A DNA stretch of 64,000 bases. It comes from Spizellomyces punctatus DAOM BR117. Its lineage: Eukaryota. A program made the position numbers and the translations under genes. Positions 11,501-55,516 of this stretch are shown here, in pieces (within the stretch, counting starts at the first letter, position 1; every line of letters starts with the position of its first letter). The notes below the pieces were generated by a model. That model had not been told where the DNA came from, made no database searches, and was given only the letters and a program-made list of their open reading frames with translations. The stretch lies in NCBI GenBank assembly GCA_000182565.2, contig KQ257451.1, one strand, 5' to 3'.

Positions 11501-14127
11501 AGAATTGCTTGAGAGACTTCAAGAGCCTTCTCTAGCTCGCCACGTCCAAGTAGGCGAGCGACTAACACATCCGGCTCTCCATTGTCTGGATACCATCCAG
11601 CTTTTAGGCATTCGAGGCAGTAGATGCGAGCTTTCGTAATTTGGTCTTTCCCCAGAAGAGCCCTCAACGTCAGGGACCTAGTGGTCGCATTTTCTGTGAT
11701 ACGACCTTCTATCATATCGTCTTTAAGCTGCAAAACTTGGTCCCATTTCTCGAGCGCTGCGTAGCTATTCATGACAAGTCCATACGCATGCGCATCAGGT
11801 CTGATCGCAGCGCGCATCTCGTGCAGCACCGCCTTCGCTCGCTCTGCACCGCCCTCACTAGCTGTAGCTGCTTCTGCTTCGATCCTGTCAATAAATGGTT
11901 TTCGGAGCAGCTTAAGCTGGTGGTGATACATGGCATCAATACCACATCGATCACTTTCATGCACGTCGGCTGCAGTGTCGAGAACAGCCTTTACCCGTAC
12001 AACAGTACCCTCGAGGTGGACTGGATAAAGTGCATTCTTCTTGATGAACTCCTCGGTGCGCCTAGCTAGGTTGTTCCTGATATCACTAAATGTCTTGGCA
12101 GCCAGACGTACACGACGAGGATATTTATGGCCTTCTCTCTTCTTGAGGCCCATCCCTCCAGTCGCCTCGTAAAGATCAACAATGTCATCAACTTTGTCCT
12201 GTGCCAAAAAGCCATCAACTATCCTATCGTACAGCTCCACGTCAATGGGTGCTTCTTGCATTAGTTCCTGCACCGTTCTCTTTGCAAGATCCAGCTCTCC
12301 GGCATCCACACACGTACGAATCAGGTGATTACAGGTTTCTCCATCAACCGAGCGACCAATTTCAAGCAGTTGTTTCATAATAGCGAACGTTTCGGAACGG
12401 TACCCCTGCGCCAGGAGAGCTGTTAAGAAGTTTTGGAGTTCGGATTTGCCGATATGTATCCCGTCTCCAACGACAGACGCGTGAATTGACAGAGCGTTCT
12501 GAACGCGACCGGCGTTCACCAAATGGGGTAGCAGCCGAATCTGCACGGCAAGGGGAACCTCCATACCAGATGCTAGAAGGCTGTCAACGACCTCGACTGC
12601 AATTTTTGCCTGGCCCTGCTCTATGGAGTGTCGTATAAAAAGTTCTGCTATTTGAAGAGGTAACGTTCGATCGTTAATCATCTGACGGACATGCTGTTCG
12701 GCACTCAATATGTCGCCATCATTGATATATGCTTGAATGACCCGTTTAGAGGTGGCCATGTTCAGGGAATATCCGGCATCCTGTAAGTTGTGCAACAATA
12801 ACTTGAGCAGTGGAAGATCTTGCTGATGCGCCGCCCATGTAATCAGTTCATTATAGGTAGTTTCAGTCAATTGCCGTGAATCCCGCAGGTCTTGGCAGAA
12901 ACGAAGGATTGCGGCTGAATCATTGCGGGCCATGCTGGAGCCTGTTAATATCGCGTACGTGTACGCGTCGCCTGTAACGCCCACGATTTGCATGTCCGCA
13001 TAAAGGGATTTCAGTTTCTCGTACGCATCGTCGTCCGTCTGATCCCGGAGATATGTAAGGAGATTATTGAAAGTTTCGACATTCGGAATGACGGCCATGT
13101 CTTTCATATCTCCATAGATTCTTAGAGCAGTCTGTCCTTTTCGCTGCTTCAGACATCTGTCAATAACGAGTCCATAACTTCGTGCATCTAAGCGCATTTG
13201 CAGCATTTTGGACTTGTCCAAAACCTGAATCGCATCATCCAGGCGTTCCAACCTGGCAAGTCCTTCAATGAGCATATCCACCTCTGCGCCGGTATCTATC
13301 TTCGTATCGGTCTGTATCAGCCTGTTGTACATATCGAAAGCGCGTTGAAAAGCGGGCTTTGCGATGTAAGGTCCACCTTGAGTACTCTTACGGATAAATG
13401 TCTTGAATGCTCTGAGCAGTATGGGTGTATCCAGCTGGATGCCTAGTTGTTCTGCCTCCTCGTAGATGCTTTGCGTAATAAACCAATCTTCCGCAACGAG
13501 GGCCGTCATCATAGATAAACTCATGAGCTCCGTATCCGGTACTGGGCCAGACCCGCCATCACTGATCCCAGCCGCATACTCCGTCATATTGGCTGGTACT
13601 GCAATTTGTGATCGGCGGGCCCTTTGGATCATCCTTTTAAGAATGCTTTGGGCAGTAGCCGCATCCTTGTTCTTTAAGCAGCATCGAACTACGTAGATAT
13701 AAGATCCCAACGAAGGTGGACATCCAGCAACCGCCATGTTCCGTAGCGTCTGCAAGCTGCGATCCAGATCTGCAGCGTCAACGTAACACTTGAGTAGCCA
13801 ATTATATTGGTATCTTGTCGGTGGAATGCCCAGAAATTCCATGTCGCTCAGAAGCGATTCCACGTCATTTGAGGAAAGGTGCCGAATGTGATGGCTTCTC
13901 AAAAGATTCGAGAGCTCTTGAAAGTCGTCGTTGTTCAACGAGCGGAAGGCGGAGGAAGAACGGTCCGCGCGAAGTACTGTATATAACTCCCATGCCTGAA
14001 CAGCAGCTTTCGCCTCAAGATTGGAACGAAACGCTACTATAAGTTCGGTTCCTACCGCAGTCGGCACTTCTGCTGACGAAATGGTCTTCTCTCCACCCGT
14101 TACCTTACAGAGCGAATATATGAGCAT
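8575..14127 (-). CDS. Very large pentatricopeptide-repeat (PPR) protein; extra 5' exon(s) up to about 14400 likely
   Basis: 1850-aa uninterrupted ORF with many roughly 35-aa PPR motifs (PTRYQYNWLLKCY, PNVETFNNLL, PDAHAYGLVMNSY, PTIVQYNHIMEGWGQMG, PDRNTWFGLCWAY). Confidence 0.88.
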   Translation of the reverse strand: MLIYSLCKVTGGEKTISSAEVPTAVGTELIVAFRSNLEAKAAVQAWELYTVLRADRSSSAFRSLNNDDFQELSNLLRSHHIRHLSSNDVESLLSDMEFLGIPPTRYQYNWLLKCYVDAADLDRSLQTLRNMAVAGCPPSLGSYIYVVRCCLKNKDAATAQSILKRMIQRARRSQIAVPANMTEYAAGISDGGSGPVPDTELMSLSMMTALVAEDWFITQSIYEEAEQLGIQLDTPILLRAFKTFIRKSTQGGPYIAKPAFQRAFDMYNRLIQTDTKIDTGAEVDMLIEGLARLERLDDAIQVLDKSKMLQMRLDARSYGLVIDRCLKQRKGQTALRIYGDMKDMAVIPNVETFNNLLTYLRDQTDDDAYEKLKSLYADMQIVGVTGDAYTYAILTGSSMARNDSAAILRFCQDLRDSRQLTETTYNELITWAAHQQDLPLLKLLLHNLQDAGYSLNMATSKRVIQAYINDGDILSAEQHVRQMINDRTLPLQIAELFIRHSIEQGQAKIAVEVVDSLLASGMEVPLAVQIRLLPHLVNAGRVQNALSIHASVVGDGIHIGKSELQNFLTALLAQGYRSETFAIMKQLLEIGRSVDGETCNHLIRTCVDAGELDLAKRTVQELMQEAPIDVELYDRIVDGFLAQDKVDDIVDLYEATGGMGLKKREGHKYPRRVRLAAKTFSDIRNNLARRTEEFIKKNALYPVHLEGTVVRVKAVLDTAADVHESDRCGIDAMYHHQLKLLRKPFIDRIEAEAATASEGGAERAKAVLHEMRAAIRPDAHAYGLVMNSYAALEKWDQVLQLKDDMIEGRITENATTRSLTLRALLGKDQITKARIYCLECLKAGWYPDNGEPDVLVARLLGRGELEKALEVSQAILDTSGRTAKMYDRTIYLKNSLGDIEGALGTFEQMKRWREEEVSQDAREFCTLHGSTVTALMHACLLEQRTSAIHELLTEISGHVTAFDQRFYLNLAMRMYRAHRPALSALLLRHSVAASHDLSVPAYTMIMTALERERDCLTAWKLYKFAFVEWRCLNDPQLERWSLDVIERLCMSSRDKDVPSIRRELSAWKNGDPPISKALSFENLEHDDVDRSIRSIEFNFKDGEPKTIFEKHAKDLLPGQLERDDGTAFVEQPDVADTTAALITALENKKYEEAGSIFCKLENASESIPPFLLWKLALGVLNRPELKGGRDLLKKVLKAMMKSPSGLPCLQSQVKTLALKSHHVTIARIAWILEMIGEVKLADDLLSMAITRVSEDKDVRNAVKMTRILVAAGRPVPPALTDIFIRAVVQDLSDQKFEVIMRRVINAGIPFDEDMFCRLVEIYVMEEGNALEVTELERALEQLRRTGIKCGSLSLQTLLKVCHRALDVAGAQKAWARWVKEGVVPESLCYQLLFDLLVRTDDIAGATNMRKIMNSMGIPPRPEYLREYFEKYLNDDHMTLETAIQVVKDVIADWEKADKPMPPPVSLRTVGNILKKAAIAKDHGGIRVAYDLVFELGYRRERLRPFLLDMVANFKSEGNLDAAGQLYRSVGPTRKLVWDTKVHEILLKYWSELGEFRKMEEVYLAIKEANKLPVLQPETFDEIIQRHARRGTPRDLQVARRFFNDLTQELERLPSRKALETLVEEHARSWDQDSAEMYIGVMKTTKILPTIVQYNHIMEGWGQMGRTDRAERWMDQIQHDGLNPDRNTWFGLCWAYVMAKDLPGAEKVLMRTKQHGFEIVERDLLTKLGERAQTLDVPGAKSVWEELVLPLKANDTQVPDIGDTRFGRKPRKTLLIGTGGDMYPRRSLDKEHPRLERRPWMKSLTGTDPEGETGLLPPDRLLGKESRAHEAGLVPPKQRIPKKLRHPRGNK

Positions 14128-14622
14128 TGTTTTCAGCCTTTGGCGGCCAAGGACAAATCCAAGATATCAGTTACCAATGATCTATTTATCACAGTGGAAT
14201 TCTTCTTCAGTCCAACTCCAAAAACAACTGTCACTCGCGGAATGTTACAAATCGGCGTATTTGACAGTCGGAGAAAGTGGGCGTTTGGTGCAAGCCCTAT
14301 AGTACCGATTGATCTGCAGACTATGGGTGCACATATCTTCGGCCGAAATGTAATGAAGAACATTTACGGGGCATCGGCAATAGAATTGCCAGCTTTTCTG
14401 GTGATCTGGGACGAAGACGATTCAAGCAGGATGAAGAAATGCACATGAAGATTGGTGCCTTGATTCAAACCGGATAGTATGTTGGATGCGAGAATGCAGA
14501 TATCAGAAAATGTGCATTGAAAAAACAAACGCAAAAACAAAGAGGTCGCACCCGGGCTAGCTACTCTTCCCTTCTAAGCCCCAGTACTCGATCTACTACT
14601 AGGTACAAAAAATCATATATGT

Positions 14623-26179: not shown

Positions 26180-29100
26180 TCACATAAGATTCCATCGTTT
26201 CAAAACCGCAATAATGACATCCTTGGTAAACGGTTTTCCAACTGCTTCGTCAGCACCGACTTCTCGCAGCTGTTCTTCGGCCTCTGCGTTGCCCACCACC
26301 TGATTGGCCGTTGTGATAACCACTGGAGTTCCGCAGCCAAGATCCCGAATGGAGCGTGTGGCTTCGTATCCGTCCATGACGGGCATGACAATGTCCTATA
26401 ATGAGAGTGTAGAATGAGTACATTTGTCCAAACACGCGAACATAAGTCTTAAAATAATAAAATTTGTCCACGTACCATGAAGATGATATGATACCAATCC
26501 GCCTTCCCGGCAACTTTGCTCCTCTTGACCAAATCAACAGCTTCCTGTCCATTCTCCGCTTGATCTATACGCAAATTATCAGGCGGCAACATCTTTTGTA
26601 GCATCCGTAATAAGATGCGGCGGTTGATGGTGGAATCGTCGACGATCAGTATTTGTCGCCCACTGTGGTCGGGACGGCAAATAGGTACGTGAGGCGCCGT
26701 TATGATGGGTGCACTATTTGTGGATGGATGATCCATTGGTGATGAAAGATTGAGTGGGACTATGGAATTTTGCGGTTGTGTTTGGGTGGGTAGTGAATCC
26801 GTGACAGGTTGTTCATGGATAACAGGGGCAAATGGCGGTATTTGGAGCGATTCTTGGTGGTTAGAATGTTCTCCTTGTTTCTTCTCGTCGATTGTTACTA
26901 GTTCCAACAGACTATTCGCTCCTTGGTCGACCCGTGTCTGCGCCATGTCTGACAAGCTGGGAGTTTTGATAACGGGTAAGACTAACGCTGGTAAAGGTTC
27001 TGCACAATTGTCCGCTTGGAGGGTTGAAGGCGAGTTACCAGCCGTTCTCTGATCTCTCGTCGAGCCCTCACGTTTCGGGGGACGCCAACTTCGTCTCCGT
27101 CTCATATTTCCAAACGGCGTAACCTTCACCTCCAGCCCATCTTCAGGACGGTCGTTGACCCGTATCGGCAGAACAACTGTAAACCTGCTCCCTTTACCAG
27201 GTTTTGTGTCTACGCCAACCGTGCCGCCCATCAACGCGACAATTTGTTCCGTGATAGCTAGGCCCAGCCCACTACCGCCGTATTCTCGCATTGTCGATAC
27301 AGCTGCCTGGGCATACGGTCTAAATAAGGTCGCAACCACGTCTGGTGCCATCCCGATACCCGTGTCCCAGACAGAAATTTCAAGGAGGACCCATTCACGC
27401 CAATCCGGCTGCGGAGCCGACCACTCCTTTGGAGGGGTGTGATGTATGATCACTGTTGATCCATCCGTACAAGGACTGTCAAGGGGAACCGCCCAAGAAA
27501 CCGTGCCTAATGTCTCATTTCGAAGCTCTACCATTGGTGAAACGTCTTCACATTCTTCGTGTGGCAGAAGCTCGCGTTCGTGTTTCCCGTTCACATCTGC
27601 TGCCTCCAATATCTCAATCATGACTTCCTCCTGTAAGGTCTCCGGCCCCTCTTCTTTCCACGCCTTTTTAGCGAAGCGAACACCTCCCCATTGACATTCT
27701 TTGGGTGCCCACCAGCCAGTCACACAACGGACTTCTACTCCAATTTTGCCATTTTCCGGGGTGAACTTGTAAGCATTTGAAATCAAGTTGTTCATGATTT
27801 GCTGAAACCGCACCGGATCGGTTTCCACCCATTTTGGAACCTCCGGACTGATATTACAAGAAAACTCGACATCGTGACCCCGAGCCAGCTGTCTGCCACA
27901 TGAAAAGTTGCCTTCCAAGAGAGTCCAAAAATCGACCAAAACGTTCTCGAGGGACACCCGTCCTGCTTCGAACCTTCCTAGATCCAAAACGTCGTTGACG
28001 AGGGCAAGCATGTACTCAGAGGAGAGTTTTATTGCGTGTGCCGATCGGTGTTGTGAATCCTCAATTGATCTCATGGAGGAGTGACTAGGCCGCCGCGGCT
28101 GTGTCTTATACTCTGGCCCACGCTGCAAAAGAGGCACCTTTTCGAGCGATTGGGCTGTCACATCTCCTGTGGAATCCTCCTGTGACGAAAGAGGTGTCGT
28201 GCTCTCCTTGTGCTGCTTGATCGCAGCCTCTTTTCCCATGTCTTCCAATAAAAATTCTGCCATGTTGGTAATGGCGTGCAAGGGATTACGTAGTTCGTGG
28301 CACAAAAACGACAGAAAAACGGCCTTATCCCGGTCCGCCCCTTCCGCTCTGCCCTTTGCTGCATCCAACTTTGTCAATGCATCAGTCAATTCCGCGGTCC
28401 GTATCTTGACACGGTTCTCCACGCTCTGATACGCTTTATCTCTCTCCGCCAAGATTGTGACGAATGATAAAGCAGTGAAAATGAGCACAGACAGGAACAG
28501 CTGGATCCAGATCAACTGTTGAGAAATGGGAATGATCTGATCTGTGTCCTTGTGAGACTTGCTGAAGATGACCGCGGTGGTTGCCGCAGATAGTGCCACC
28601 AACATGGTGGAAAAAGCTGCACCAAAGACACCCAGGAGAGTGCTCATATACAGAACCCACGGGTAACATAAATAGAGTCCGACGATTGCTGAGAAAATAG
28701 ACCGGTCCAGAAAATACATGCTTATCGCAGGGCACGCGATGACGAGAACGGACAAAACTACGGATTGAATAAATCGTGAGCGCTGGTATCGTATAAAATT
28801 CTTGATTTTCTCCGGAGTTGTGCGTCCGATGGAAACAACAAGGGGGGCCGTCAAACTACAATGGAACTTATTAGGTACCTTGAACACCTGGAACACCGAT
28901 CCTATACGTACGCCATTCCAACAAAGTTCCGACCTAGCCATCTCAGATAAGCAGCATGGTATTCAAAAGATGGATTGATCAGCCACATGGTCATATAGCC
29001 ACCGCCGAGGGCAGTGATGAGAATTGTTAGACACCCAATCCCAAAAGATATCATCTATAAATCAAGATTTCAGTTTATTCTCGATGCAAGGATCGAAAGT

Positions 29101-43442: not shown

Positions 43443-46400
43443 TTAACCAACGGCTTTCCGAGAAACAGCGCCAACACGTCCCCAAAGACTTGCTACAAAT
43501 CGCTCCAAAACTCTCTTATCCTCGTCTGACATGGCGCCTTCGGCATCAACGTCGCAATCGTCGCCCATGAGGAGGAGAGCTTCGACGAGGAGGATGGCGT
43601 GGCGGTACATGCTCTCGCATTGAGAGTGAGAGGGTTGGGACGAGAGTTCATTTAGGGCTGCGGTACGGGACTGAAAGATGACCCTTGTTTAAGCAAAAAT
43701 GTATGAATCATGTCTAAAAAACATGGGTACTCACCACTTCCAAAGCCCGATCGTACACGACTCGCTCAACACAACGTCGCCCTTCTTCTACGCCTGATCC
43801 TTCAATTTTCCCTCTGCACGTCTCAGCAGCATCCAAACACTCGTTAAAGCGTTCTCGAACCCATTGCACAGCGGTGCTCAAAATGCGCAAATTGACACCA
43901 CCGCTTCGAGACTCCCACACGCCTTTAGCAACCTCTATACCAAGCTGGTAGCATCGAAGAGCTAGAAGGTAGCAACCGAGGGCTTCCTCTGCAGTCGTTG
44001 GAGACACAGAGGATGACGAAAGCAGGGAATCACCGAGCTGCTGTACGGCGTGGCCTCGAAGGGCGCAAAGATTCAGGGTGTCAAGCAGAGGATGGTATCC
44101 CTCAGTTTGAACGACCTCCAAGCCAGAGTGGATATTTGGGCCTGGTGAGCCTGTTCTACCGCCTGTCCCACCGGCAGTGGCTGCTGCCGCATAGGCTGCT
44201 GGAGGAGTGGTCCCCAATATTCCTCCTGGAGAGCCTGATCCTCCAGAGTTACTGGAAGAGACGTTAAGGAATTGATGTGTCGATTCGCGCAAGGATCCGA
44301 AAATACGACCTATCGAGGAAATATAAAGTATGTTATGACACACCAAACAGTCGATCTGCTTTTCGCATACATGCATACCTTGTGTCTTGGGCTCAAGTCT
44401 AAGACTCCGAGGACTATGTGGCGACCCAGATGAAACGGAAGCACTGGAAGACGTGCCAGAACCAACGAGACCCGATATCGGCACAGGGACGCCTTGACTC
44501 GATCCCGTGCTAGGACTTCTTCCCCTAGCAGGAGGAAGAAACACGGCATGTCCGGCGGCAGCAGAGATAGGGCTGACAGGACCCGACTCGCCGGCGCCTA
44601 GATCTTGAGCATTTTTGCCCACCGCTCCAGCTACCTCATCGGCAAGCCAATTGACCTCAACAACCCGTTTTTCGACAACGACATATTCTTCCAGGCTGGC
44701 CCTGACATTGCCGTGGCTGCCGCTTCCGCTTCCGCTGCCACTACGTGCACTTGTTTCCAGCCGCCGAGCGACTGGCGGTGACAGAGTTGCTGGTGGATCT
44801 CCTACCGTTTCTTGCTCTCCAACGACATCATCGGCGTCCGCATCGCTCAATTCCAGGGACCCCAACGAGCTCAGAGAGGAGTTATTGTTGCCATCTCGTG
44901 TATCTTCCTCAGGTCCTGGTGCCTGCGCACTGGAACCTGGTACAGGCTCGACACTACCGGTGGCATGAACAAAAATGGAAGGATCCACATTGGCATATCC
45001 AGGAAAAGGCGGCTCGATCGCGACACTGACTCCACCACGTGTGTGGTCCAACATGTCGACTTTGCGCGCGTGGCTGACATCTTCTTCAACGACAACTGAA
45101 GAAAATGGTGGCACTTTCTCCCCTTCAAATCCAACGGATGCCTCCTTCCGAACTTCATCCCTGTAATCCGAATCATCCCCAGGGATTTTCATCCTCCCTC
45201 TTTCGGACCCAGTCCGTTCCAGTCGCAGATTGTCGCTGTATCCATAGGTGGGAGGATGCGGCCCATATACGATCTCGTCGGCTTTTACATGAAACACCGG
45301 TGCAGACGTCTGGCGCTGCATATCAAGGCGCTGAATGTGGCGCATAGGTGCAGATGACGGGGAAGGATGCCGCATGCTCTGGTGGTCGTAGACGTCTGTC
45401 GGATGCCCAAGTCCAGATCCCGCGGTGTACTGCGACGACGAGGCCAGCATGTCTGCTTCAACACGGCCAGCAGGAACCGCATTCGGATGAGCCATTCCGA
45501 GGACCTGCGTCTGAGACTGTCTTAGACTTGATGGATGGGTCACGGTCGTCTGTTTTGCGGGTGATGTATGGACACGGTACAGTGGGGCCGGCATTTGGGC
45601 ATCGCCTCGAGGTAAGCCGAGACCCTCTGAGATGGCAATATGTCCTCGGTTCGTGACATCAAACAGCGGTTCAGTACTGCTCGGTCCCAATGCAAATGGA
45701 GGATCCCCTTCAAGAGCAATACTGCTTGGTATTGATGTCGTTCCTTTTTGTGAAGAAGACGATGGGCTTCGCCGTAGGGTGCCCCTCAATAAACCCTCAC
45801 TAGCGTTAAAGGATCCGACTGTGTGCCCGCCAATAGCCCGGTTGCTGATGACGCAAGGATCGGCAAAGAACGCTTCAAACGACATTCGCTCAGAGGGATT
45901 TCTCTTTAGTAATTTCCTTATCAGATCCTTCAAATCATCACTTATAGGCTGTGCTCCCTGCATATGAGGAAACCGTGGGCTTGAACTGGGACTAGTCCCC
46001 AATCTTCTGCTTGGGGATGACGACAGTGCATTACTTCTTCTCCCAGCTACCATTGACGCCATGTCTTCACCTGGAAAAAGAATGATGCCTTCACCGCGTT
46101 CAATCTTCCTCAACAGGTCAATGTGATTTTGGGCTTTGAAGGGTGGCCGCCCAGTTACCATTTCGTACAGAATGGCACCAAAAGACCATAGATCTGCTTT
46201 GGCATCATATCTGTCCCCGCGGAGAATCTCTGGCGCCATATAGAGGGGGGAGCCGCACAAGGTAGATGCCAAGGACTGGGAGGGCAGCGCACGAGCAAAA
46301 CCAAAGTCAGCCAACTTGAGCATTGGCAGAGGCGGTACGGTGACGTACGTTCCGGGTTTCGCAGGATTGGGTATTCGGACGGCTGGTGAGTCTTGAGGAG

Positions 46401-47103
46401 CTGGTGACAGCAGTACATTCTGTTTTCTTCCAATCAGCCATTCGCTCTTTTGGAAACAACGACCGGATAGTTTAAGCATACCTGCGGCTTCAAGTCGCGA
46501 TGAATCAAGCTATGGGCTCGCAGGAATTCCATCGCCGAAGCTAAACAAGATGCAAAATAAACCGTAAGTCCCCTTGTACGATTTTACATTCTGTTTTGAT
46601 ATGGAGCATACCGAGCTGCTTCAGAAAGTGCCGCACTACAACATCATTTAGCCCGCCCCACGGCCCAGCCAGCGGATTCCATGCGCCCGCTTCGACGGTC
46701 GCCCCGCCGACAAGGCCACGGCGCTTGATGTAATGTGAGAGGTCACCGAGGGAGCAGTATTCCATGATGAGATGGATGTGCTTATCCGTTTTCTGTAACA
46801 GCATGCAACGTGAGTAGCTGCATTTTTGAGGTGCATCCACATGTTCCGAAACCCTACCATGATATCCAACAGGGCCACAACATGCTCATGCTGAATTCCC
46901 TTTAGAATCTTGATTTCACCCTCTAGATTCTCAGCTAATTTCCTATTTAGTTTATCCCTCGACACGGACTTTACGGCAACTGGTTGTCCAGAAGAAATGG
47001 ATTTCCCCATGTACACCGTAGCAAAGGACCCTCGCCCGATTTCGTGTCCGATGATGTAGTCACCGACCGCAGTCGATGATACAGTTGATGGTATTGAAGA
47101 CAT
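43443..47103 (-). CDS. ATG1: Atg1/ULK serine/threonine kinase, multi-exon
   Basis: [108 protein letters not shown] and a C-terminal MIT-like region [21 protein letters not shown] 43443-43445. Confidence 0.95.
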
Positions 47104-48452: not shown

Positions 48453-50048
48453 CTATCCCCGTTTCCACAATGTAATAACAGACTCCCCACGGATGCGAAC
48501 AAAGAAATTGAGAATCGCCCCGCATACGAACACCACAAATCCCATAATCCTAAATGCCGTGTTCAAGTCATCTACATAGACGGTGAAAACCGCATTGAAA
48601 ATGGCTCCACCAATATTTCCCCCGGCACCAACCAGTCCACTAACCGCGCCCATAATGTGAGGAATCACAAAGGGAACGATACCAAAAGTCGAACCACACC
48701 CGGCTTGCACAAAGTAGGAAAACAGGACAAGGGATACCACGCTGGTGGAAAGACTAGGTGCAAAGCTGAATCCGATAAGGCACGCAGAACTGCAAAGGAA
48801 GCCCAAGCTCTGGACGCGAAGACGACCTTTCATTCCCCATTTGCTTGCTGCCCAGTCCGAAAGAAAACCTCCCGACGCGCGGGAAAACAGGTTCATCATT
48901 CCGAAAATGGAGGCGAGGTAACCGGCAATGGTTTGGTCAAGCTTAAAGTGGTTGATAAAATACTTTGATATGACAGAGTCGACAGCCAGTTCGACACCAA
49001 AGCAGCAGGCATACTGTAAACGAAGAAAAGGTTTTGTCAGCAAACCGCCTTCCACAAATTTGAACAGCAAGTCTTTATCCTCACCTGCATCATCAACAAG
49101 GGAACATTGTGGTTCGTCAAGGCGGTCATCATAATCTTGTATACTGGTATATTGCTAGCTGACGTTGCGAGGCCGGCGTCCTTTGGTTCAACGGGAATGA
49201 TTGCGGTGTCTTCCGCTTGTTTGGGTATATCAGTGCCTTCAGGACCCATGGTGGACTCGCTTGGCTTTGAATCGATGTGCATAGGGAGGGAGCGAGAGTT
49301 GGGCTTGTCATCCCCCAGAAAGTAGCACATGGCCGAGACGAGGAGACAAATGGCGACAGGCACGACAAGCGAAACTAGAATGTCAAGAGAAATCAGCTAC
49401 CAGTCACGTCACGACAAGATCAAGATGTGCGAGCCACAACTCACCTCGCCAAGCATCATGCTTGCTCAAGCCAGCAGAAACGAACCCATTCATCACTTGC
49501 GGCATAAGCAGGTAAGTTGCACCACCTCCCATGTTTCCCCATCCTCCGGCAATGGCGTTCGCGCTGCCGACAACGTTACGAGAGAACATGGCGGTTGTCC
49601 AGTATTGGCAAGCCACAAATGTTGAGCCGAGTAAACCAATAAATAACCGAATGACAATTAGTCCTGTCGCACTGGAAACAAGCCCGACAAGACCAAGAGG
49701 GATACATCCAAGAGCGAGAACAAGGGACATGACACGGCGAGGACCAAGCTTGTCGACAAGCGGGCCGACAAGGATCCGAAAGACAACAGTCGAAGCTACA
49801 TTGGCGATATCAGACATGGCAACCTGCTTCTCAGTCAAGCCCAAATCGGGTCCGATCGTCTTCTTCAACAGCGGGTTGAGGGCAAACCATGCCGTAAATG
49901 CAGCAAAAAATCCGAGCCATGCCAAATGGAACGACCGCATATGCGGGCGCCCCAGTGACAGCAGCTTAATGTTGGTAGCTTTGCCTTCTTCATCGTACGA
50001 GAGACGGGAAGGGAACAGGTTGGGACACGACCGGTTTTTAGGCGCCAT
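48453..50048 (-). CDS. NRT2: High-affinity nitrate/nitrite transporter, NRT2 (NNP family MFS), 3 exons
   Basis: RPHMRSFHLAW, TM2 Arg (VFRILVGPLVD), nitrate signature AGGWGNMGGG, QYACCFGVEL, TM8 Arg (NLFSRASGG), FGIVPFV and second signature GLVGAGGNIG; ATG 50046-50048. Confidence 0.95.
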
Positions 50049-50265
50049 TATAAACGAGATAGTAAAAAATGTGGGGGAGGCTTGAAGCGACAATAATCGT
50101 GGAGAAGGACTTTTGGCTCTTTTCCCTCTAGGGTGGAATGTAGTGGGAGAGACGGGGAGGCAAAATGCTGCAGTCCTTTATAAAAAGTTTGCGAGGATGG
50201 AGACTTGGGGAGACAGGTGTGATGTTTTCCGAGGGAGGCATGTGGAAGGCGGAAATCGGCTCCGC

Positions 50266-50935: not shown

Positions 50936-52625
50936 GGGCGCATTGCCCCGAGATTAACCTAATCATGCACAATAAGATATAAAGTTTGGGAACACTTTTT
51001 TTCTAACATTTGCTGTACTGTACATGTGACGAAGCAACGGACAATGCGAGATTTGGGTGACATGGTCCACACAGCCTCATTTTCATGATGGAGATTCATA
51101 AAAGACTTACAACTCGTATCGAATATTTGATCCGACAAGCATCAACAGCGGGTTTGAACTGGTGTATTGTGGTTGCAATCATTCAGCTATTCCAGTAAGC
51201 CATTTCATCAAACCTGGTTGACGCACGCACTGCAATGTTCCTGCAAGGACTCACTATCTCCCATTCGGGAGCCTCAAGTCTTATAGGGAGACATTGAAAC
51301 ATTCTCTCAACTGTCAGCGCAGCCACGTGGCCTCAGATATCAGGAAAAAAAGCAAAGTTGAAAACTCTGAGCGTTGGAGAAATAAAGAGGCGCTGGCTGT
51401 GCTTTGCAATGGAAGACTAATCAAACCCGTTGTAATGTTTTCACTACAATCGTAGACACGCCCCAATATACGAAAGAGATAAATCTTATGCGGGGAACGC
51501 CCTCTTCAACGCATTAAAAAATGGATCATGCGAAAGTTTTGGACAAAATGGACAAGTCGCAGCAATGGTTGTGTGCTCGTGTTATTTACCTGGTCCCTCA
51601 GCGTACCAAGTGCACAGAATGATCAATATTGACCACGGTAATACTGTGGGACACGGGGGACTGATTTGGTAGAGGTGTCTTATGGGACACATATCTCGGG
51701 GCAATCAATATACGACACCATTTGCTACAGATCTGGAATTCGCGCTATAGATACATGTTATATACTTGGCGGAGTTATCGCTCCCTTACGCTGCCACGTT
51801 CTATCTCCCCATAATCGCCAGTTATTTTTAACAACCAACCAAAATTCCCGCTCACGATCGCGCTACAAGTTCTAGACATTGACGCAATCCTCACGTAGCG
51901 CGACCCATTTTTCGAACCTCGTGTGCCAAGGTAAAAAAGACACCGCCGCCGCGACTCGTGCCCTGGGCACTAGCTGTGGAAACGTGCGAGGAATGGATGA
52001 TTTGTAACAAGCATTTGTTTGCTACCTTTGAAGGGATCAGGGTGGGAATTTCTACTCGGAGAAAATCAAAATGACAGATACTTGTTTTGAGCTGGCCACT
52101 ATTGCTAACAGTTTGATTGACAAAGTTTGTTGAGAAAGACGATGCGACAGTTAACATACTGTGCTGGGAATGTGCAGGGAATGTCCAATGTGTGAAAAGT
52201 CGCTTACGAGATAAAACTCCGACAGCCTGTGGTAAGAATGGTTCCAATCTCCCTGCGCGTCGGACATTAATTTTTTTTTGTTTTTGATGAATGACTCATG
52301 GTCGTCGGGAAAGTTGAATGGGTGTGATTTTTGACCTTGTTTACGGGCGTTTTTGCAAAACGACACACTACGAACCTGACGCACGTTTGCGAATCTTTGG
52401 ACGTCGAAATACCCTTGTTGCGAGATTGACCCTATATCTGCTCGTTCAGTAGCATTGAGGTCACAGTGCGACACATCCCATGATTTGTTAAAACGATCTA
52501 CGATTAGATATCATTGCGTTCGTTTTTCCCGTCGCTATTTTCGTACATTCCTCCCCGCTCGAACATAAAGGAGTGGTGCATTTGCGTCTCCGCCAAGAAT
52601 ACTCCCCTCCTCTTGGTCCGTCAAG

Positions 52626-55516
52626 ATGACGATGGATAAGCAGACTACCAGAATTGTTATCATCACGACGGCGGTTGCTATTACTGTGGGTGTGCTGATT
52701 TGGACAACGAGACGGAGATCTAAAAGAGATGGAGAGGTAGGTACTTGACAGGCGCATGAGATTGTGGGCACTTCTGGGACTAATTCATGATGTTGTAAAG
52801 GATTCTGGTAATCTGGATAAGCAAGATTCCTCGCTTCAACAACTTAATGAGCGAGAAGATGCTGGTCCGATCCAAACTTTTGAGGTTACCCAGATTACAG
52901 AGATTAAAAAGGAGACAGAATCACTGGTTGCCAATCGTGAAACTTTACAAATTCTCGAGGTGCGAGAACAGGAAGATGTCACACATGTTCAAAGATCCGT
53001 TGTCACCGAGATTACCAAGGAGGCAGACCAGCCAATTGCCAACGATGAGACTTCACACCCACTCCAAGAGGAGGACCAGTTAGATTCTGCCTCCATCCAA
53101 GCTTGCGATGTTACTCAGGTTACAGAGATTGTAAAGGACGCAGAGTTCTTAGTCACCACTCGTGAGACTCTAGAAATTCTCGAGGTGCGAGAACAGGAAG
53201 ATGTCACACACCAAACCTCCGTGGTTAAGGAGATTACTAAGGAGGCAGGCCTACCAATTGCCAACGATGAGATTTCACACCCACTCGAAGAGGAAGACCA
53301 GGCAGATACTGTCTCCGTCCAAGCTGTCGAGGTTACTCAGATTACAGAGATTGCAAAGGACGCAGAATCATTAGTCACCACACGTGAGGCTCTCGAGATG
53401 CGAGAACAGGAAGATGTCACACATCAAACCTCCGTGGTTCACGAGATTACTAAGGGGGCAGACCAACCAAATACCAACGATGAGATTTCACACCCACTCG
53501 AAGAGGAAGACCACGCAGATACTGTCTCCATCCAAGCTGTCGAGGTTACCCAGATTACAGAGATTGCTAAGGAGGCAGACCAACGAAATACCAACGATGA
53601 GATTTCACACCCACTCGAAGAGGAAGACCAGGCAGATACTGTCTCCGTCCAAGCTGTCGAGGTTACTCAGATTACAGAGGTTGCAAAGGAGGCAGAATTA
53701 TTAGTTACCAATTGCGAGACCCTGCAAGTCCTCGAGGTGCGAGAGCAGGAAGATGTCGCACATGTTCAGACATCCGTGGTCACCGAGATTACCAAGGAGG
53801 CAGAACAACCAATTACCAACGATGAGAATGCAAAGGAGGCAGAAACATTAGTTACCGATCGCGAGACTCTGCAAGTCCTCGAGGAGCAGGAAGATGCCGC
53901 ACATGTTCAGACATCCGAGGTCACCAAGATTACCAAGGAGGCAGACCAACTAATTGCCAACGATGAGAATGCAAAGGAGGCAGAAATATTAGTTACCAAT
54001 CGCGAGAGTCTGCAAGTCCTCGAGGAGCAGCAAGATGCCGCACATGTTCAGACATCCGAGGTCGCCGAGATTACCAAGGAGGCAGACCAATCAATTTCCA
54101 ACGATGAGATTTCACACACACTCGAAAAGCAGGACCAGGCAGATTCTGTCTCCATCCAAGGTTTCGAGGTTAATCAGATGACAGAGATTGCAAAGGCGGT
54201 AGAATTATCAGTTACCAATCGCGAGACTCTGCAAGTCCTCGAGGTGCCAGAGCAGGAAGACGTCACACATCTTCAAACATCCGCGGTCAGCGAGATTACC
54301 AACGAGGCAGACCAACCAATTGCCAACGATGACATTTCACACCCACTCGAAGAGGACGGCCAGTCAGATGCTGTGCCGATGAGAATTGATGCACCGGCCT
54401 TCATACCCACAAGCCCCGAGCGGCGACCAGCATCTCCTTTGAGAATTGATGCACCGGCTTTCATTCCTACCAGCCCCGAGCGCCGGCCAAAATCCCCACT
54501 CAGGGCTGAGGCACCCGTTTTCATTCCTACGAGCCCCGAGCGGCGGCCAGCCTCTCCGTTGAGACTTGATGCGCCAGCCTTTGTCCCCACCAGCCCCGAG
54601 CGCCGGCCAACCTCCCCACTCAGAGCTGAGGCACCCGTTTTCATTCCTACGAGCCCCGAGCGGCGGCCAGCCTCTCCGTTGAGACTTGATGCGCCAGCCT
54701 TTGTCCCCACCAGCCCCGAGCGCCGGCCAACCTCCCCACTCAGAGCTGAGGCACCCGTTTTCATTCCTACGAGCGCCGAGCAGCGGCCAGCCTCTCCTTT
54801 GAAACTTGATGCGCCAGCCTTTGTCCCCACCAGCCCCCAGTGCAGACCAACCTCCCCGCTGAGGGTTGATGCACCCGCGTTCGTCCCGACTAGCCCCGAG
54901 TGTAGACCAATTTCCCCGTTGAGGGCCGAGGCGCCAGCGTTCATTCCTACGAGCCCTGAGCGGCGACCGATGTCGCCGCTAAAGGCCGACGTCCCCTCCT
55001 CTGTACCTACTAGCCCTGATCGTAAATCCAGTTCTCCTCTGAACGTCATGGCTGCTGAATTCCGTCCCGAATCTCCCCCCTATGCCATCCTCCCCATCCC
55101 AACCCTCAACGTCTTTGCCGAGGAATTCGTTCCATCAGGTGCCCCTATTCCGTTCCTGACTCCAATCCCAGCCACCGGTGCACCTAATCGGCGCCGAAAA
55201 TCATCGCAGAGCCGACCTGCGCAATTGAATCAAAAGGCGCCCACGTTGGCAGACTTTGTCCCAGTGAGGACTGCAGCACCCAAGCGGGGCCCGAAGGAGG
55301 ACGTCCCCAAGAAATGTCTTTTTGGGGAGAATTGTGCCAATAAGACCAAGTGCGGATATCACCATCCTACGGAACTCTGCAAGTGAGTATATCTTTTGCC
55401 TGCCATGAGCTTGGATCTTGGCTCCGATTTCTAATCAAAATTTTTCATTTGTCAGGTTCTACCCGAACTGCAAGTTCGGAGCCGCCTGCCGAAACATCCA
55501 CCCCAAAGCTCACTGA
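52626..55516 (+). CDS. Membrane-anchored protein with acidic repeat stalk, tandem PAM2-like array and two Nab2-type CCCH zinc fingers
   Basis: Exon 1 52626-52736 (TM + RRRSKR); intron 52737-52800 (GTAGGT, CTAAT branch, AAG; phase 0); exon 2 52801-55382; intron 55383-55455; exon 3 55456-55516 completes CKFYPNCKFGAACRNIH. Confidence 0.85.
52850..54370 (+). repeat. Coding, modular Glu/Thr-rich tandem repeats (acidic stalk)
   Basis: Recurrent modules EVTQITEIAKEA, LQVLEVREQEDVTHVQTSVVTEITKEADQPIANDE and EISHPLEEEDQADTVSVQAV, with near-identical DNA copies. Confidence 0.9.
54379..55134 (+). repeat. 60-bp coding tandem repeat encoding PAM2-like motifs (SPLRxDAPxFxPTSPERRPx)
   Basis: Exact 60-nt periodicity from about 54375 to 55070, partly as a 120-nt dimer. 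There are 13 motifs, 12 of which keep L/M-x3-A-x2-F-x-P; the last two are LNVMAAEFRP and LNVFAEEFVP. Confidence 0.92.

What the first reader, a model, noticed from the sequence alone, without database searches (positions are those of the whole stretch)
52626..55516. Candidate organelle-anchored poly(A)-mRNP tether: TM anchor, acidic stalk, PAM2 array and Nab2-type zinc fingers
Seen: an upstream exon missed by the ORF track (MTMDKQTTRIVIITTAVAITVGVLIWTTRRRSKRDGE) splices in frame to about 520 aa of acidic repeats, about 12 PAM2-like motifs and two C-x5-C-x5-C-x3-H fingers, the second completed by a terminal exon. Known: PAM2 motifs bind the MLLE domain of PABP, Nab2/ZC3H14-type CCCH fingers bind poly(A), and a short TM followed by basic residues resembles mitochondrial outer-membrane signal anchors. 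Inference: the protein could hold many PABP-coated mRNAs at a distance from an organelle surface, for localised translation or mRNA/ribosome storage (e.g. in zoospores). I do not know a described protein with this architecture; Ustilago Upa1/Upa2 are only conceptual analogues.
Basis: partly seen in the sequence, partly recalled or inferred. Interest (0 to 1): 0.88.

Follow-up and report, generated by a model that had tools for sequence, protein, structure and literature searches.

The report
Membrane-anchored multi-PAM2 zinc-finger protein, chytrid
A chytrid fungus gene appears to encode a membrane-anchored protein whose long cytosolic tail carries a dozen docking sites for poly(A)-binding protein and two poly(A)-type zinc fingers, so it may hold messenger RNAs at an organelle surface; this has not been tested.

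Summary
A three-exon model on the + strand (52626-52736, 52801-55382, 55456-55516) gives a 917-aa protein with no internal stop. It has an N-terminal 19-residue hydrophobic anchor followed by RRRSKR, and 525 aa of acidic tandem repeats (net charge -99). Then come ten 20-aa PAM2-like repeats, one decayed copy, two canonical PAM2 motifs (Pfam 28.5 bits, cutoff 20) and two C-x5-C-x5-C-x3-H fingers. The second finger is completed by exon 3 (1 of 20000 shuffles does this).

No RNA data covered either junction. Two relatives show the same layout of TM anchor, disordered linker, PAM2, T-L-x-D-F motif and finger: Thoreauomyces humboldtii KAJ3018872.1 and an unnamed 282-aa JGI protein. Both end exactly where intron 2 starts here.

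The acidic stalk is not conserved. Which organelle carries the protein, PABP binding and RNA binding are all untested.

A neighbouring gene places the window in Spizellomyces (96% identity to S. punctatus).

Best reading: a membrane-tethered receptor for Pab1/poly(A) RNPs. This would be a new combination of known modules. My literature searches found no description of this architecture.

The parts
52626..52736 (+). Exon 1 (37 codons): start codon, short N-terminal flank, TM anchor, basic cluster
   Evidence: It is the first ATG of the ORF 52569-52748. The donor is GAG|GTAGGT. Both relatives start with a comparable N-terminal hydrophobic anchor.
52653..52709 (+). Predicted signal-anchor / TM helix (aa 10-28)
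   Evidence: Kyte-Doolittle 19-mer mean is 2.21, the highest in the protein. Only 30 separate segments reach 2.2 in all six frames of the 64-kb window.
52710..52727 (+). Basic cluster RRRSKR directly after the anchor
   Evidence: Read from the sequence. P0024 has a stronger basic cluster at the same place, and P0008 has net +2 in its 15 flanking residues.
52737..52800 (+). Intron 1 (64 nt), GTAGGT...CTAAT...AG; contains the rival in-frame start ATG at 52756
   Evidence: Introns of the neighbouring Atg1/ULK gene, mapped with the S. punctatus protein, are about 40-60 nt with GTAGGG, GTATGC and GTGAGT donors.
52801..55382 (+). Exon 2 (860 codons + 2 nt)
   Evidence: It lies within an open frame of 881 codons, 52741-55386. 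Its translation is P0001.
52801..54375 (+). Acidic tandem-repeat linker (525 aa, net charge -99; 25% D+E)
   Evidence: TRF periods: 213 nt x3.2, 117 nt x2.2, 141 nt x3.0. The AlphaFold2 single-sequence model has mean pLDDT 43 and only a helical tendency.
54370..55029 (+). Array of eleven 20-aa units x-S-P-L-R-x-D/E-A-P-x-F-I/V-P-T-S-P-E-R-R-P: ten PAM2-like, the eleventh decayed (F lost)
   Evidence: TRF gives 60-nt period x9.8 and 120-nt period x4.2 at 90%. The array scores 24.5 bits summed against Pfam PAM2 with no single stretch passing. The core residues L, A, P, F, P are invariant (L in 9 of 10) while each uses 2-3 synonymous codons. There are 18 [ST]-P-x-[KR] sites.
55039..55068 (+). Canonical PAM2 motif 1 (LNVMAAEFRP)
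   Evidence: Pfam PAM2 scores 28.5 bits, E 9.6e-7, 2 stretches on the 60-aa piece. The pattern L[NS]xxAxEFxP occurs at least once in 5 of 100000 shuffles of the 137-aa tail, and at least twice in 0.
55105..55134 (+). Canonical PAM2 motif 2 (LNVFAEEFVP)
   Evidence: Same evidence as motif 1. It aligns with the PAM2 of P0008 and P0024.
55243..55263 (+). Conserved T-L/I-A/G-D-F-V/I motif between the PAM2s and the fingers; role unknown
   Evidence: T, D and F are invariant in the 3-sequence alignment A1. AlphaFold2 places a short helix here (low confidence).
55315..55365 (+). CCCH finger 1 (C-x5-C-x5-C-x3-H)
   Evidence: Its Cys and His residues are invariant in A1. The Pfam zf-CCCH_2 score is weak here (11.7 bits, E 0.42), but the equivalent finger of P0024 scores 21.8 bits.
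55377..55501 (+). CCCH finger 2, split by intron 2 after its first Cys codon plus 2 nt
   Evidence: The exon-3 frame alone, without the first Cys, scores 22.8 bits (E 1.3e-4) against zf-CCCH_2 (cutoff 25.8). Only 1 of 20000 shuffles completes a finger.
55383..55455 (+). Intron 2 (73 nt), GTGAGT...CTAAT...CAG, phase 2
   Evidence: Unspliced reading stops at the TGA inside GTGAGT. Both relatives' predicted proteins end at this exact point (...ELCQ...DMCR).
55456..55516 (+). Exon 3 (end of finger 2, four more codons, TGA)

Best explanation
This is a real three-exon gene of a Spizellomyces-like chytrid. It encodes a single-pass membrane protein anchored by its N-terminus, with almost all of its 917 residues in the cytosol.

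The cytosolic part is a long disordered linker that ends in two poly(A)-RNP recognition modules. The first is an array of 12 PAM2-type short linear motifs, which should dock the MLLE domain of the cytoplasmic poly(A)-binding protein Pab1. The second is a tandem pair of Nab2-type CCCH fingers at the extreme C-terminus, which should contact A-rich RNA directly.

Together these would capture Pab1-coated poly(A) tails with high avidity and hold mRNPs at the surface of a membrane. Which membrane is undetermined; it could be the ER or the mitochondrial outer membrane.

Each degenerate motif is flanked by two [ST]-P-x-[KR] sites. Proline-directed kinases could therefore switch the binding on or off.

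Shown in silico: the gene structure, the motifs, their conservation, and the architecture shared with two relatives. Inferred: topology, Pab1 binding, RNA binding, phospho-regulation and the cellular role.
For: **Gene structure.**
- The gene model is open and uses canonical splice signals.
- Exon 3 completes a second finger with the same spacing as the first. Only 1 of 20000 shuffles does so.
- The exon-3 frame on its own hits Pfam zf-CCCH_2 at E 1.3e-4.

**PAM2 motifs.**
- The canonical PAM2 pair scores 28.5 bits against a cutoff of 20. The degenerate array scores 24.5 bits summed.
- Across the 10 copies, the motif-core residues stay invariant while each uses 2-3 synonymous codons.

**Relatives.**
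- The exhaustive phmmer search returned 53 proteins at E<=1e-3. Two of the 53 (P0008, Thoreauomyces humboldtii; P0024, JGI) carry an N-terminal hydrophobic anchor, a long linker, PAM2 motif(s), the T-L-x-D-F motif and the finger.
- P0008 scores 64.8 bits against Pfam PAM2.

**Topology.** Basic residues follow the anchor in all three proteins. By the positive-inside rule (recalled), this puts the C-terminal part in the cytosol.

**Precedents in print.**
- Pan3 combines a poly(A)-binding zinc finger with a PAM2 motif (passages of PMC6547884).
- Phosphorylation in the disordered region around the Tob2 PAM2 motifs changes PABP binding (passages of PMC7430666).

**Fingers.** The best, though non-significant, PDB matches of the exon-3 finger are Nab2 fingers 2lhn, 5l2l and 3zj1 (E 0.3-0.8).
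Against: - No transcript evidence exists for either junction or for expression.
- An in-frame ATG at 52756 permits a model without the anchor.
- No model of this protein from S. punctatus DAOM BR117 appeared in any protein search. Yet the neighbouring ULK/Atg1 protein of that strain was found at 96% identity.
- The ten degenerate motifs have R/K where canonical PAM2 has N/S, and A/V where it has E. None passes Pfam on its own.
- The motifs are only 20 residues apart, so neighbouring MLLE domains may clash. This is my inference.
- Each finger alone is below the Pfam gathering score (11.7 and 22.8 bits against 25.8). Two fingers is fewer than the three used by Nab2 (recalled).
- In Upa1 and Upa2 the PAM2 motifs were dispensable for function.
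- The family is so far seen in only three sequences.
Confidence: 0.5

Rival explanations
1. A membrane-bound Pab1 sink or translational regulator rather than an mRNA tether. The array titrates Pab1 (or competes with eRF3, Pan3 or Paip-like partners for its MLLE) at a membrane, and phosphorylation releases it. This would tune global translation or deadenylation during the life cycle.
For: It rests on the same motif evidence as the main reading. The 18 [ST]-P-x-[KR] sites interleaved with the motifs suggest switchable binding. The Tob2 work shows that phosphorylation can raise or lower PABP binding.
Against: The conserved C-terminal CCCH pair suggests direct RNA contact, which a pure protein sink would not need. 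P0024 has a single PAM2 motif, which is too few for titration.
Confidence: 0.15
2. An adaptor for another MLLE protein. The ten divergent L-R-x-D-A-P-x-F-x-P units bind the MLLE of an Rrm4-like RNA transporter or a UBR5-like ligase instead of Pab1. That would make this a TM-based functional counterpart of Upa1.
For: The degenerate units differ consistently from canonical PAM2 at two positions, and none passes Pfam individually. Potential Rrm4 orthologues are reported in Chytridiomycota (passages of 10.1101/467787). An Armillaria Upa1 is reported with a predicted TM domain in place of the RING.
Against: The PAM2-like motifs of Upa1 are a distinct motif class, and I did not compare them here. 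The units share L, A, F and P with PAM2. P0008 shows a graded series from D-A-P-x-F-x-P to canonical forms within one array. No Rrm4-like protein of this organism was examined.
Confidence: 0.1
3. A soluble cytosolic multi-PAM2/CCCH scaffold. Translation starts at the in-frame ATG 52756, exon 1 is not part of the gene, and there is no membrane anchor.
For: ATG 52756 is in frame with exon 2. No RNA data support the 52736/52801 junction. A hydrophobic 19-mer upstream could be chance: 30 such segments occur in 64 kb across six frames.
Against: Both relatives carry an N-terminal anchor followed by basic residues within the same predicted protein. In P0024 the whole protein is one 282-aa prediction on a 1290-nt contig. 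The upstream ATG has A at -3, while ATG 52756 has C at -3. Without splicing, the upstream ATG would open a 40-codon uORF ending 8 nt before ATG 52756. The donor, CTAAT and acceptor signals are all present.
Confidence: 0.1
4. A fast-evolving repetitive protein whose motifs are not functional docking sites. Examples would be a secreted or surface Pro/Ser/Thr- and acid-rich repeat protein with a signal peptide, or a poorly expressed or decaying gene.
For: More than 80% of the protein is tandem repeat. The repeats are young: the 120-nt units match at 90%. No orthologue model was found for the closely related S. punctatus. No expression evidence was obtained.
Against: The frame is open over 917 codons. 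Motif-core residues are held through synonymous change. The canonical PAM2 pair is far beyond chance. The PAM2, T-L-x-D-F and finger region is conserved in three sequences at 35-39% identity. The charge distribution around the anchor argues against a cleaved signal peptide with a lumenal body. CCCH fingers and PAM2 motifs are cytosolic or nuclear modules (recalled).
Confidence: 0.07

Closest known systems
Ustilago maydis Upa1 and Upa2 (endosomal mRNA transport)
   Same: These are fungal proteins that use PAM2 motifs to contact the Pab1 MLLE and link mRNPs to a membrane organelle. Upa2 has four PAM2 motifs, which its authors call exceptional, and its binding strength rose with motif number (passages of 10.1101/455378).
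   Different: Upa1 reaches the membrane through a lipid-binding FYVE domain and also has ankyrin repeats, a RING and PAM2-like motifs. Upa2 has a coiled coil and a GWW motif. Pfam found none of these domains here. This protein has a TM anchor, 12 motifs and CCCH fingers. No sequence similarity to Upa1 or Upa2 was tested.
Pan3 N-terminal region (Pan2-Pan3 deadenylase)
   Same: It places a poly(A)-binding CCCH zinc finger next to a PAM2 motif in a disordered region. Both interactions are weak (micromolar) and together recognise the poly(A) RNP (passages of PMC6547884).
   Different: Pan3 continues into a pseudokinase and a Pan2-binding region, and it is soluble. No kinase-like domain was found here. 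This protein has many PAM2 motifs and a membrane anchor, and no nuclease partner is implied.
Nab2 / ZC3H14 tandem CCCH fingers (Pfam zf-CCCH_2, PF14608)
   Same: The finger spacing is the same class, C-x5-C-x4-6-C-x3-H. zf-CCCH_2 is the best Pfam family for finger 2 and for the finger of P0024. Nab2 fingers are the top, though non-significant, PDB matches.
   Different: There are only two fingers. No N-terminal Nab2 domain is present. The context is cytosolic and membrane-bound rather than nuclear. Scores are below the Pfam gathering score for each finger alone. This protein is not an orthologue of Nab2.
[quoted passage not shown]
   Same: They follow the same concept of a single-pass membrane protein whose cytosolic region holds mRNAs at an organelle. 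AEG-1 is described as an ER-resident integral membrane RBP (search listing and start of abstract of PMC5900566).
   Different: No sequence relationship was tested. Those proteins are not reported, in what I saw, to act through PAM2/MLLE or CCCH fingers.
MKRN1 (PAM2 + CCCH + RING)
   Same: It combines a PAM2 motif with CCCH fingers to act on poly(A)-bound PABP (search listing of 10.1101/516005; details recalled).
   Different: MKRN1 is a soluble E3 ligase with a RING domain. Here no RING was found and a TM anchor is present.

Membership tests
PAM2 motif proteins (Pfam PF07145) | Sequence match to the PAM2 profile at or above the gathering score (20 bits) | tested here: met
   The 60-aa piece with the two canonical motifs scores 28.5 bits, E 9.6e-7, with 2 stretches. 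The degenerate array scores 24.5 bits summed, with 0 single stretches passing. The whole exon-2 protein scores 19.4 bits, just under the cutoff.
PAM2 motif proteins (Pfam PF07145) | Core residues L..A..F.P (consensus recalled) lying in a disordered region | tested here: met
   12 matches to [LFMIV]x3[AV]x2FxP. AlphaFold2 gives no secondary structure over the motifs, with pLDDT 45-62 (low-confidence model).
PAM2 motif proteins (Pfam PF07145) | Binding to the MLLE domain of PABP | not testable with these tools
Nab2-type CCCH zinc finger (Pfam PF14608 zf-CCCH_2) | C-x5-C-x4-6-C-x3-H spacing in tandem | tested here: met
   Two fingers, both C-x5-C-x5-C-x3-H, lie 4 residues apart in the spliced product.
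Nab2-type CCCH zinc finger (Pfam PF14608 zf-CCCH_2) | Profile score at or above the gathering score (25.8 bits) | tested here: inconclusive
   Finger 1 scores 11.7 bits (E 0.42). The exon-3 frame without the first Cys scores 22.8 bits (E 1.3e-4). The P0024 finger scores 21.8 bits. The spliced two-finger sequence could not be handed to the scan.
Nab2-type CCCH zinc finger (Pfam PF14608 zf-CCCH_2) | Zinc-dependent binding of polyadenosine | not testable with these tools
   This needs EMSA or fluorescence polarisation with the C-terminal peptide.
Nab2 / ZC3H14 orthologues | N-terminal Nab2-type domain and 5-7 fingers (recalled) | tested here: not met
   Only two fingers are present and Pfam found no other domain.
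Upa1 / Upa2 | FYVE, ankyrin and RING domains (Upa1); C-terminal coiled coil and GWW motif (Upa2) | tested here: not met
   The Pfam scan of exon 2 lists no FYVE, ankyrin or RING domain. The protein ends in CCCH fingers.
Pan3 | Pseudokinase and C-terminal Pan2-binding region | tested here: not met
   No kinase-like domain appears in the Pfam scan.
N-terminally signal-anchored membrane proteins | A single hydrophobic segment of about 19 residues or more near the N-terminus, with more positive charge on its C-terminal side | tested here: met
   A 19-residue segment has KD 2.21. The N flank has net charge +1. RRRSKR follows directly. The pattern is the same in P0008 and P0024. No dedicated TM or targeting predictor was available.
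Mitochondrial outer-membrane signal-anchored proteins (Tom20/Tom70/OM45 type) | Targeting to the outer membrane rather than the ER | not testable with these tools
   Sequence features overlap with ER-type N-terminal anchors (recalled). This needs localisation of a tagged protein.

The most novel reading that the evidence does not exclude
The protein is a phospho-switchable, membrane-anchored multivalent receptor for Pab1-coated poly(A) tails. Its 12 docking motifs and its poly(A) fingers nucleate a layer or condensate of mRNPs on one organelle of the chytrid cell. This would store or locally translate mRNAs through the zoospore-to-sporangium cycle. If so, it is a TM-based solution to mRNA-organelle coupling, evolved independently of the FYVE-based Upa1 system.
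Probability: 0.2. Interest if true: 0.8.

Novelty: new variant of a known kind. Interest (0 to 1): 0.6.

Why it matters
How mRNAs are physically coupled to organelles is known for only a few adaptors: Upa1 on endosomes, AKAP1/MDI-type and Puf3-type factors on mitochondria, and p180 or AEG-1 on the ER.

A protein that is itself an integral membrane protein, and that reads the general poly(A)/Pab1 mark through both a PAM2 array and CCCH fingers, would be a direct and sequence-independent mRNP receptor.

An array of 12 motifs is also far beyond the four that were called exceptional in Upa2. It would therefore be a natural test case for avidity, crowding and phospho-control of MLLE-PAM2 binding.

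The host genus includes a chytrid that, from my recollection, can be transformed. The predictions are therefore testable.

Tried and rejected
**Homology searches.**
- The word-index search with the whole exon-2 protein gave no hit at E<=1e-3 among 8000 candidates of 473-1505 aa.
- A profile search with A1 against longer proteins gave 3 hits. No new full-architecture member appeared beyond P0008 and P0024.
- Two metagenome contig scans, with A1 and then P0024, confirmed 0 loci. The DNA downstream of the relatives' finger 1 could therefore not be read.
- The PDB sequence search with the C-terminal 120 aa gave 0 matches at E<=10.
- The ESM Atlas gave a best score of 0.78 with only generic CCCH clusters and no usable hit for P0024. 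These are leads only.

**Expression.**
- No RNA holder is listed for this stretch.
- Two runs of uncertain type each held one small contig identical to exon 2 (52891-53141 and 55161-55311). Neither reached a junction.
- This says nothing about expression.

- No whole genome is held for the window.

**Structure prediction.**
- AlphaFold2 on 300 aa of the acidic repeats gave mean pLDDT 43.4. I claim only a weak helical tendency.
- AlphaFold2 on the C-terminal 120 aa with the 3-row alignment gave mean pLDDT 58.6. I ran no fold search because the model is too poor.
- No complex prediction was run, because the session held no MLLE/PABP sequence.

**Readings rejected.**
- Pfam DUF1456 (29.6-30.4 bits, cutoff 27) and DUF2525 hit the acidic repeats. 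I reject them as compositional matches of a bacterial DUF to one 38-aa stretch of a repeat.
- The antisense ORF 54273-55079 (268 aa) is a Gly/Ser-rich mirror of the Pro-rich repeats.
- Most of the 53 phmmer hits are not relatives. Of the 15 whose sequences I read, six are S/P/Y heptad, RNA polymerase II CTD-like proteins (P0005, P0006, P0009, P0011, P0013, P0020). The remaining 38 were checked only by pattern, and none has the finger.

**Literature.**
- One literature query failed on a syntax rule. I replaced it.
Full report
**What is in the sequence.**

On the + strand an ATG at 52626 opens a 37-codon exon. It encodes a 9-residue N-terminal flank, a 19-residue hydrophobic segment (IVIITTAVAITVGVLIWTT, Kyte-Doolittle mean 2.21) and the basic cluster RRRSKR.

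The exon ends GAG|GTAGGT. Sixty-four bases later, after a CTAAT element, an AG joins it in frame to the long open frame that runs to 55382. There a GTGAGT donor, whose TGA would stop an unspliced reading, opens a 73-nt intron with CTAAT and CAG. A last exon (55456-55516) ends in TGA. The spliced CDS is 2754 nt, giving 917 aa with no internal stop.

Introns of the neighbouring Atg1/ULK gene, mapped with the S. punctatus protein, are about 40-60 nt and have GTAGGG, GTATGC and GTGAGT donors. The two proposed introns therefore fit the local style.

**The protein in order.**

- *Acidic region.* After the anchor come 525 residues with net charge -99. They are built from tandem repeats of 213, 117 and 141 nt. 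A single-sequence AlphaFold2 model of 300 of these residues has mean pLDDT 43 and shows only a helical tendency. I treat the region as a disordered polyanionic spacer.
- *PAM2-like array.* Eleven 20-residue units follow, of the form x-S-P-L-R-x-D/E-A-P-x-F-I/V-P-T-S-P-E-R-R-P. TRF gives periods of 60 and 120 nt, the latter at 90% match. Ten units keep the PAM2-type core L...A..F.P, and the eleventh has lost the Phe.
- *Canonical PAM2 motifs.* Two follow, at 55039-55068 and 55105-55134.
- *Conserved motif.* A T-L-A-D-F-V-P motif lies at 55243-55263.
- *Fingers.* Two C-x5-C-x5-C-x3-H fingers sit four residues apart. The second is split by intron 2 after its first Cys codon plus two bases.

**Is it more than chance?**

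- *PAM2 pattern.* The loose pattern occurs 19 times in all six frames of the 64-kb window, and 12 of those are in this gene. For L-x3-A-x2-F-x-P the figures are 11 of 13.
- *Repeats are not independent.* The ten repeat copies arose by tandem duplication. However, the core residues are invariant (L in 9 of 10 copies, with M in the first) while each uses two or three synonymous codons. Over all pairs of units there are 318 synonymous and 204 non-synonymous codon differences. That argues for constraint on the motif.
- *Canonical motifs.* The two canonical motifs are independent of the array. The strict pattern L[NS]xxAxEFxP appears at least once in 5 of 100000 shuffles of the 137-residue tail, and never twice.
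- *Pfam PAM2.* The score is 28.5 bits (E 9.6e-7, cutoff 20) on the 60-aa piece, 24.5 bits summed on the degenerate array with no single stretch passing, and 19.4 bits on the whole exon-2 protein.
- *Finger 2.* Only 1 of 20000 dinucleotide shuffles of the 260 nt downstream of the donor can complete a finger through any 40-200-nt intron ending in AG. The only complete C-x5-C-x4-6-C-x3-H pattern in the six frames of the window is finger 1.
- *Exon 3 alone.* Without the first Cys, the exon-3 frame still scores 22.8 bits (E 1.3e-4) against Pfam zf-CCCH_2, the Nab2-type finger (cutoff 25.8). Finger 1 scores 11.7 bits.
- *PDB.* The best matches of the exon-3 frame, none significant, are Nab2 fingers 2lhn, 5l2l and 3zj1 at E 0.3-0.8.

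**Relatives.**

An exhaustive phmmer search of 1.84 billion representatives with the C-terminal 340 residues of exon 2 gave 53 proteins at E<=1e-3. A pattern scan of all 53 found the finger in two of them.

- P0008 is a 1080-aa hypothetical protein of Thoreauomyces humboldtii, KAJ3018872.1.
- P0024 is an unnamed 282-aa JGI protein on a 1290-nt contig.

Both begin with a hydrophobic anchor (KD 2.06 and 1.85) followed by basic residues. Both have a long low-complexity linker, PAM2 motif(s), the T-L/I-x-D-F motif and the finger. P0008 has five pattern matches plus one T-for-A variant and scores 64.8 bits against Pfam PAM2. P0024 has one motif, scoring 18 bits.

Both predicted proteins end one residue after the first Cys of what would be finger 2 (...ELCQ...DMCR). 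That is exactly where intron 2 starts here. It suggests a conserved phase-2 intron that the gene callers read into. I could not fetch their DNA to check.

The relatives matter for exon 1. In them, the anchor and the PAM2/finger region belong to one predicted protein.

The linker is not acidic in P0008 (net +32) and only mildly so in P0024 (-11). The 'acidic stalk' is therefore a lineage-specific elaboration, not a family feature.

Of the other hits, I read 13. Six are RNA polymerase II CTD-like S/P/Y heptad proteins. Seven carry PAM2-like arrays in unrelated contexts. The remaining 38 were only pattern-scanned.

**Organism.**

The neighbouring ORF 43714-46509 (-) is an Atg1/ULK kinase, 96% identical over 98% of its length to the protein of Spizellomyces punctatus DAOM BR117. 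The next best hit is 50% identical, from Phlyctochytrium arcticum. Exon by exon, identity is 95-100%, apart from one 32-residue piece at 75% that overlaps the next one.

The window is thus from a Spizellomyces very close to that strain but not identical to it.

No S. punctatus model of the protein studied here turned up. It may be unannotated there, collapsed in the assembly, or absent. This is unexplained.

**How it most likely works.**

- *Topology.* By the positive-inside rule (recalled), the charge distribution puts the short N-terminus outside and the whole remainder in the cytosol. The N flank has net charge +1 and RRRSKR lies directly after the helix. Both relatives show the same trend. 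PAM2 and CCCH modules belong in the cytosol.
- *PAM2 function.* PAM2 motifs are the established ligands of the PABP MLLE domain (passages of PMC6547884 and 10.1101/455378).
- *Multivalency.* In Upa2, pull-down strength rose with the number of intact motifs.
- *Pan3 precedent.* A CCCH finger next to a PAM2 motif is the arrangement by which the Pan3 N-terminus recognises the poly(A) RNP. Both contacts are weak on their own.
- *Proposal.* I therefore propose a membrane-tethered, multivalent receptor for Pab1-coated poly(A) tails. The long linker gives it reach.
- *Regulation.* The 18 [ST]-P-x-[KR] sites, two per unit, offer control by proline-directed kinases. The precedent is phosphorylation around the Tob2 PAM2 motifs, which raises or lowers PABP binding.

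Every step from topology onward is inference. The organelle is open. An N-terminal anchor followed by basic residues fits both ER-type and mitochondrial outer-membrane signal anchors (recalled).

**Weaknesses.**

- There is no transcript evidence. Two tiny contigs identical to exon 2 came from runs of uncertain type, and neither reached a junction.
- A rival in-frame start lies at 52756.
- The ten degenerate motifs deviate from the canonical form at two positions and fail Pfam individually.
- A 20-residue spacing may not allow full occupancy by MLLE domains. This is my inference.
- There are two fingers only, each below the Pfam threshold when scanned alone.
- The PAM2 motifs of Upa1 and Upa2 were dispensable in vivo.
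- The family has only three known sequences.

**Comparison with known systems and novelty.**

The protein is not a member of the Upa1, Upa2, Pan3, MKRN1 or Nab2 families. Their defining domains (FYVE, ankyrin, RING, pseudokinase, the Nab2 N-terminal domain and 5-7 fingers) are absent.

It would work like a hybrid of three things: a Pan3-type poly(A)-RNP reader, a Upa1-type organelle adaptor, and ER-resident membrane RBPs such as AEG-1 (listing and start of abstract of PMC5900566).

The literature searches were as follows.

- PAM2 motif with transmembrane, MLLE and zinc finger: 45 papers held 3 of the 4 terms, of which I saw the 20 listed; none of those 20 describes such a protein.
- PAM2 with PABP and membrane-, tail- or signal-anchor terms: 16 papers, of which I saw the 15 listed; none of those is relevant.
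- PAM2 with Nab2, CCCH and 'poly A': 0 papers.
- Spizellomyces with PAM2: 2 papers, and neither describes it.

The nearest remark in print is that an Armillaria Upa1 has a predicted TM domain in place of its RING.

I rate this a new variant of a known kind. It is a new architecture built from known modules, in an uncharacterised and apparently Spizellomycetales-restricted family.

Noticed in passing
P0055 (JGI, 258 aa; found): This is an unnamed protein with five Pfam PAM2 stretches (77.4 bits). It ends in a hydrophobic C-terminal segment (KD 1.91 over 19 residues). It could be a tail-anchored PAM2 array, i.e. the same idea in the opposite topology, or it could be a read-through artefact.
   Followed up: partly
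P0002, P0010, P0042, P0051, P0016, P0018, P0035: Arrays of D-A-P-x-F-V-P type PAM2-like motifs occur in unrelated proteins. Examples: a Biomphalaria glabrata eIF4G3/Paip1-like protein with 17 copies, a Diatraea saccharalis exonuclease-domain protein, and two small Phanerochaete proteins ending in 3-4 L-R-A-D-A-P-A-F-V-P units after an acidic stretch. Multi-PAM2 arrays seem to have arisen repeatedly.
   Followed up: partly
window 52626-55516 versus the S. punctatus DAOM BR117 proteome: The neighbouring ULK/Atg1 protein of S. punctatus is in the protein collection at 96% identity. No S. punctatus counterpart of the PAM2/CCCH protein was returned. The gene may be unannotated or mis-assembled there.
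   Followed up: no
window 54273-55079 (-): A 268-codon antisense open frame runs across the PAM2 array and encodes Gly/Ser/Leu-rich repeats. It is most likely a by-product of the Pro-rich repeat on the + strand.
   Followed up: partly
window 54370-55029: The 120-nt higher-order repeat units are 90% alike over 4.2 copies, and several 60-nt units are identical. The copy number in this assembly could therefore be under- or over-called, and it probably varies between strains.
   Followed up: no
window 52801-54360: Pfam DUF1456, a bacterial family, scores 29.6-30.4 bits on one 38-aa stretch of the acidic repeats. This is above its cutoff of 27. I judged it a compositional false positive.
   Followed up: partly
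window 8575-14166 (-), 26449-28962 (-), 43446-47103 (-), 49404-50177 (-): Other genes lie in the window: a very long single ORF of 1863 codons full of PPR repeats, a histidine kinase (HisKA + HATPase_c), the Atg1/ULK kinase, and an MFS transporter fragment.
   Followed up: no
window 55243-55263 and alignment A1: A short motif T-L/I-A/G-D-F-V/I is conserved in all three family members between the last PAM2 and finger 1. It has no known assignment. AlphaFold2 puts a one-turn helix there.
   Followed up: no
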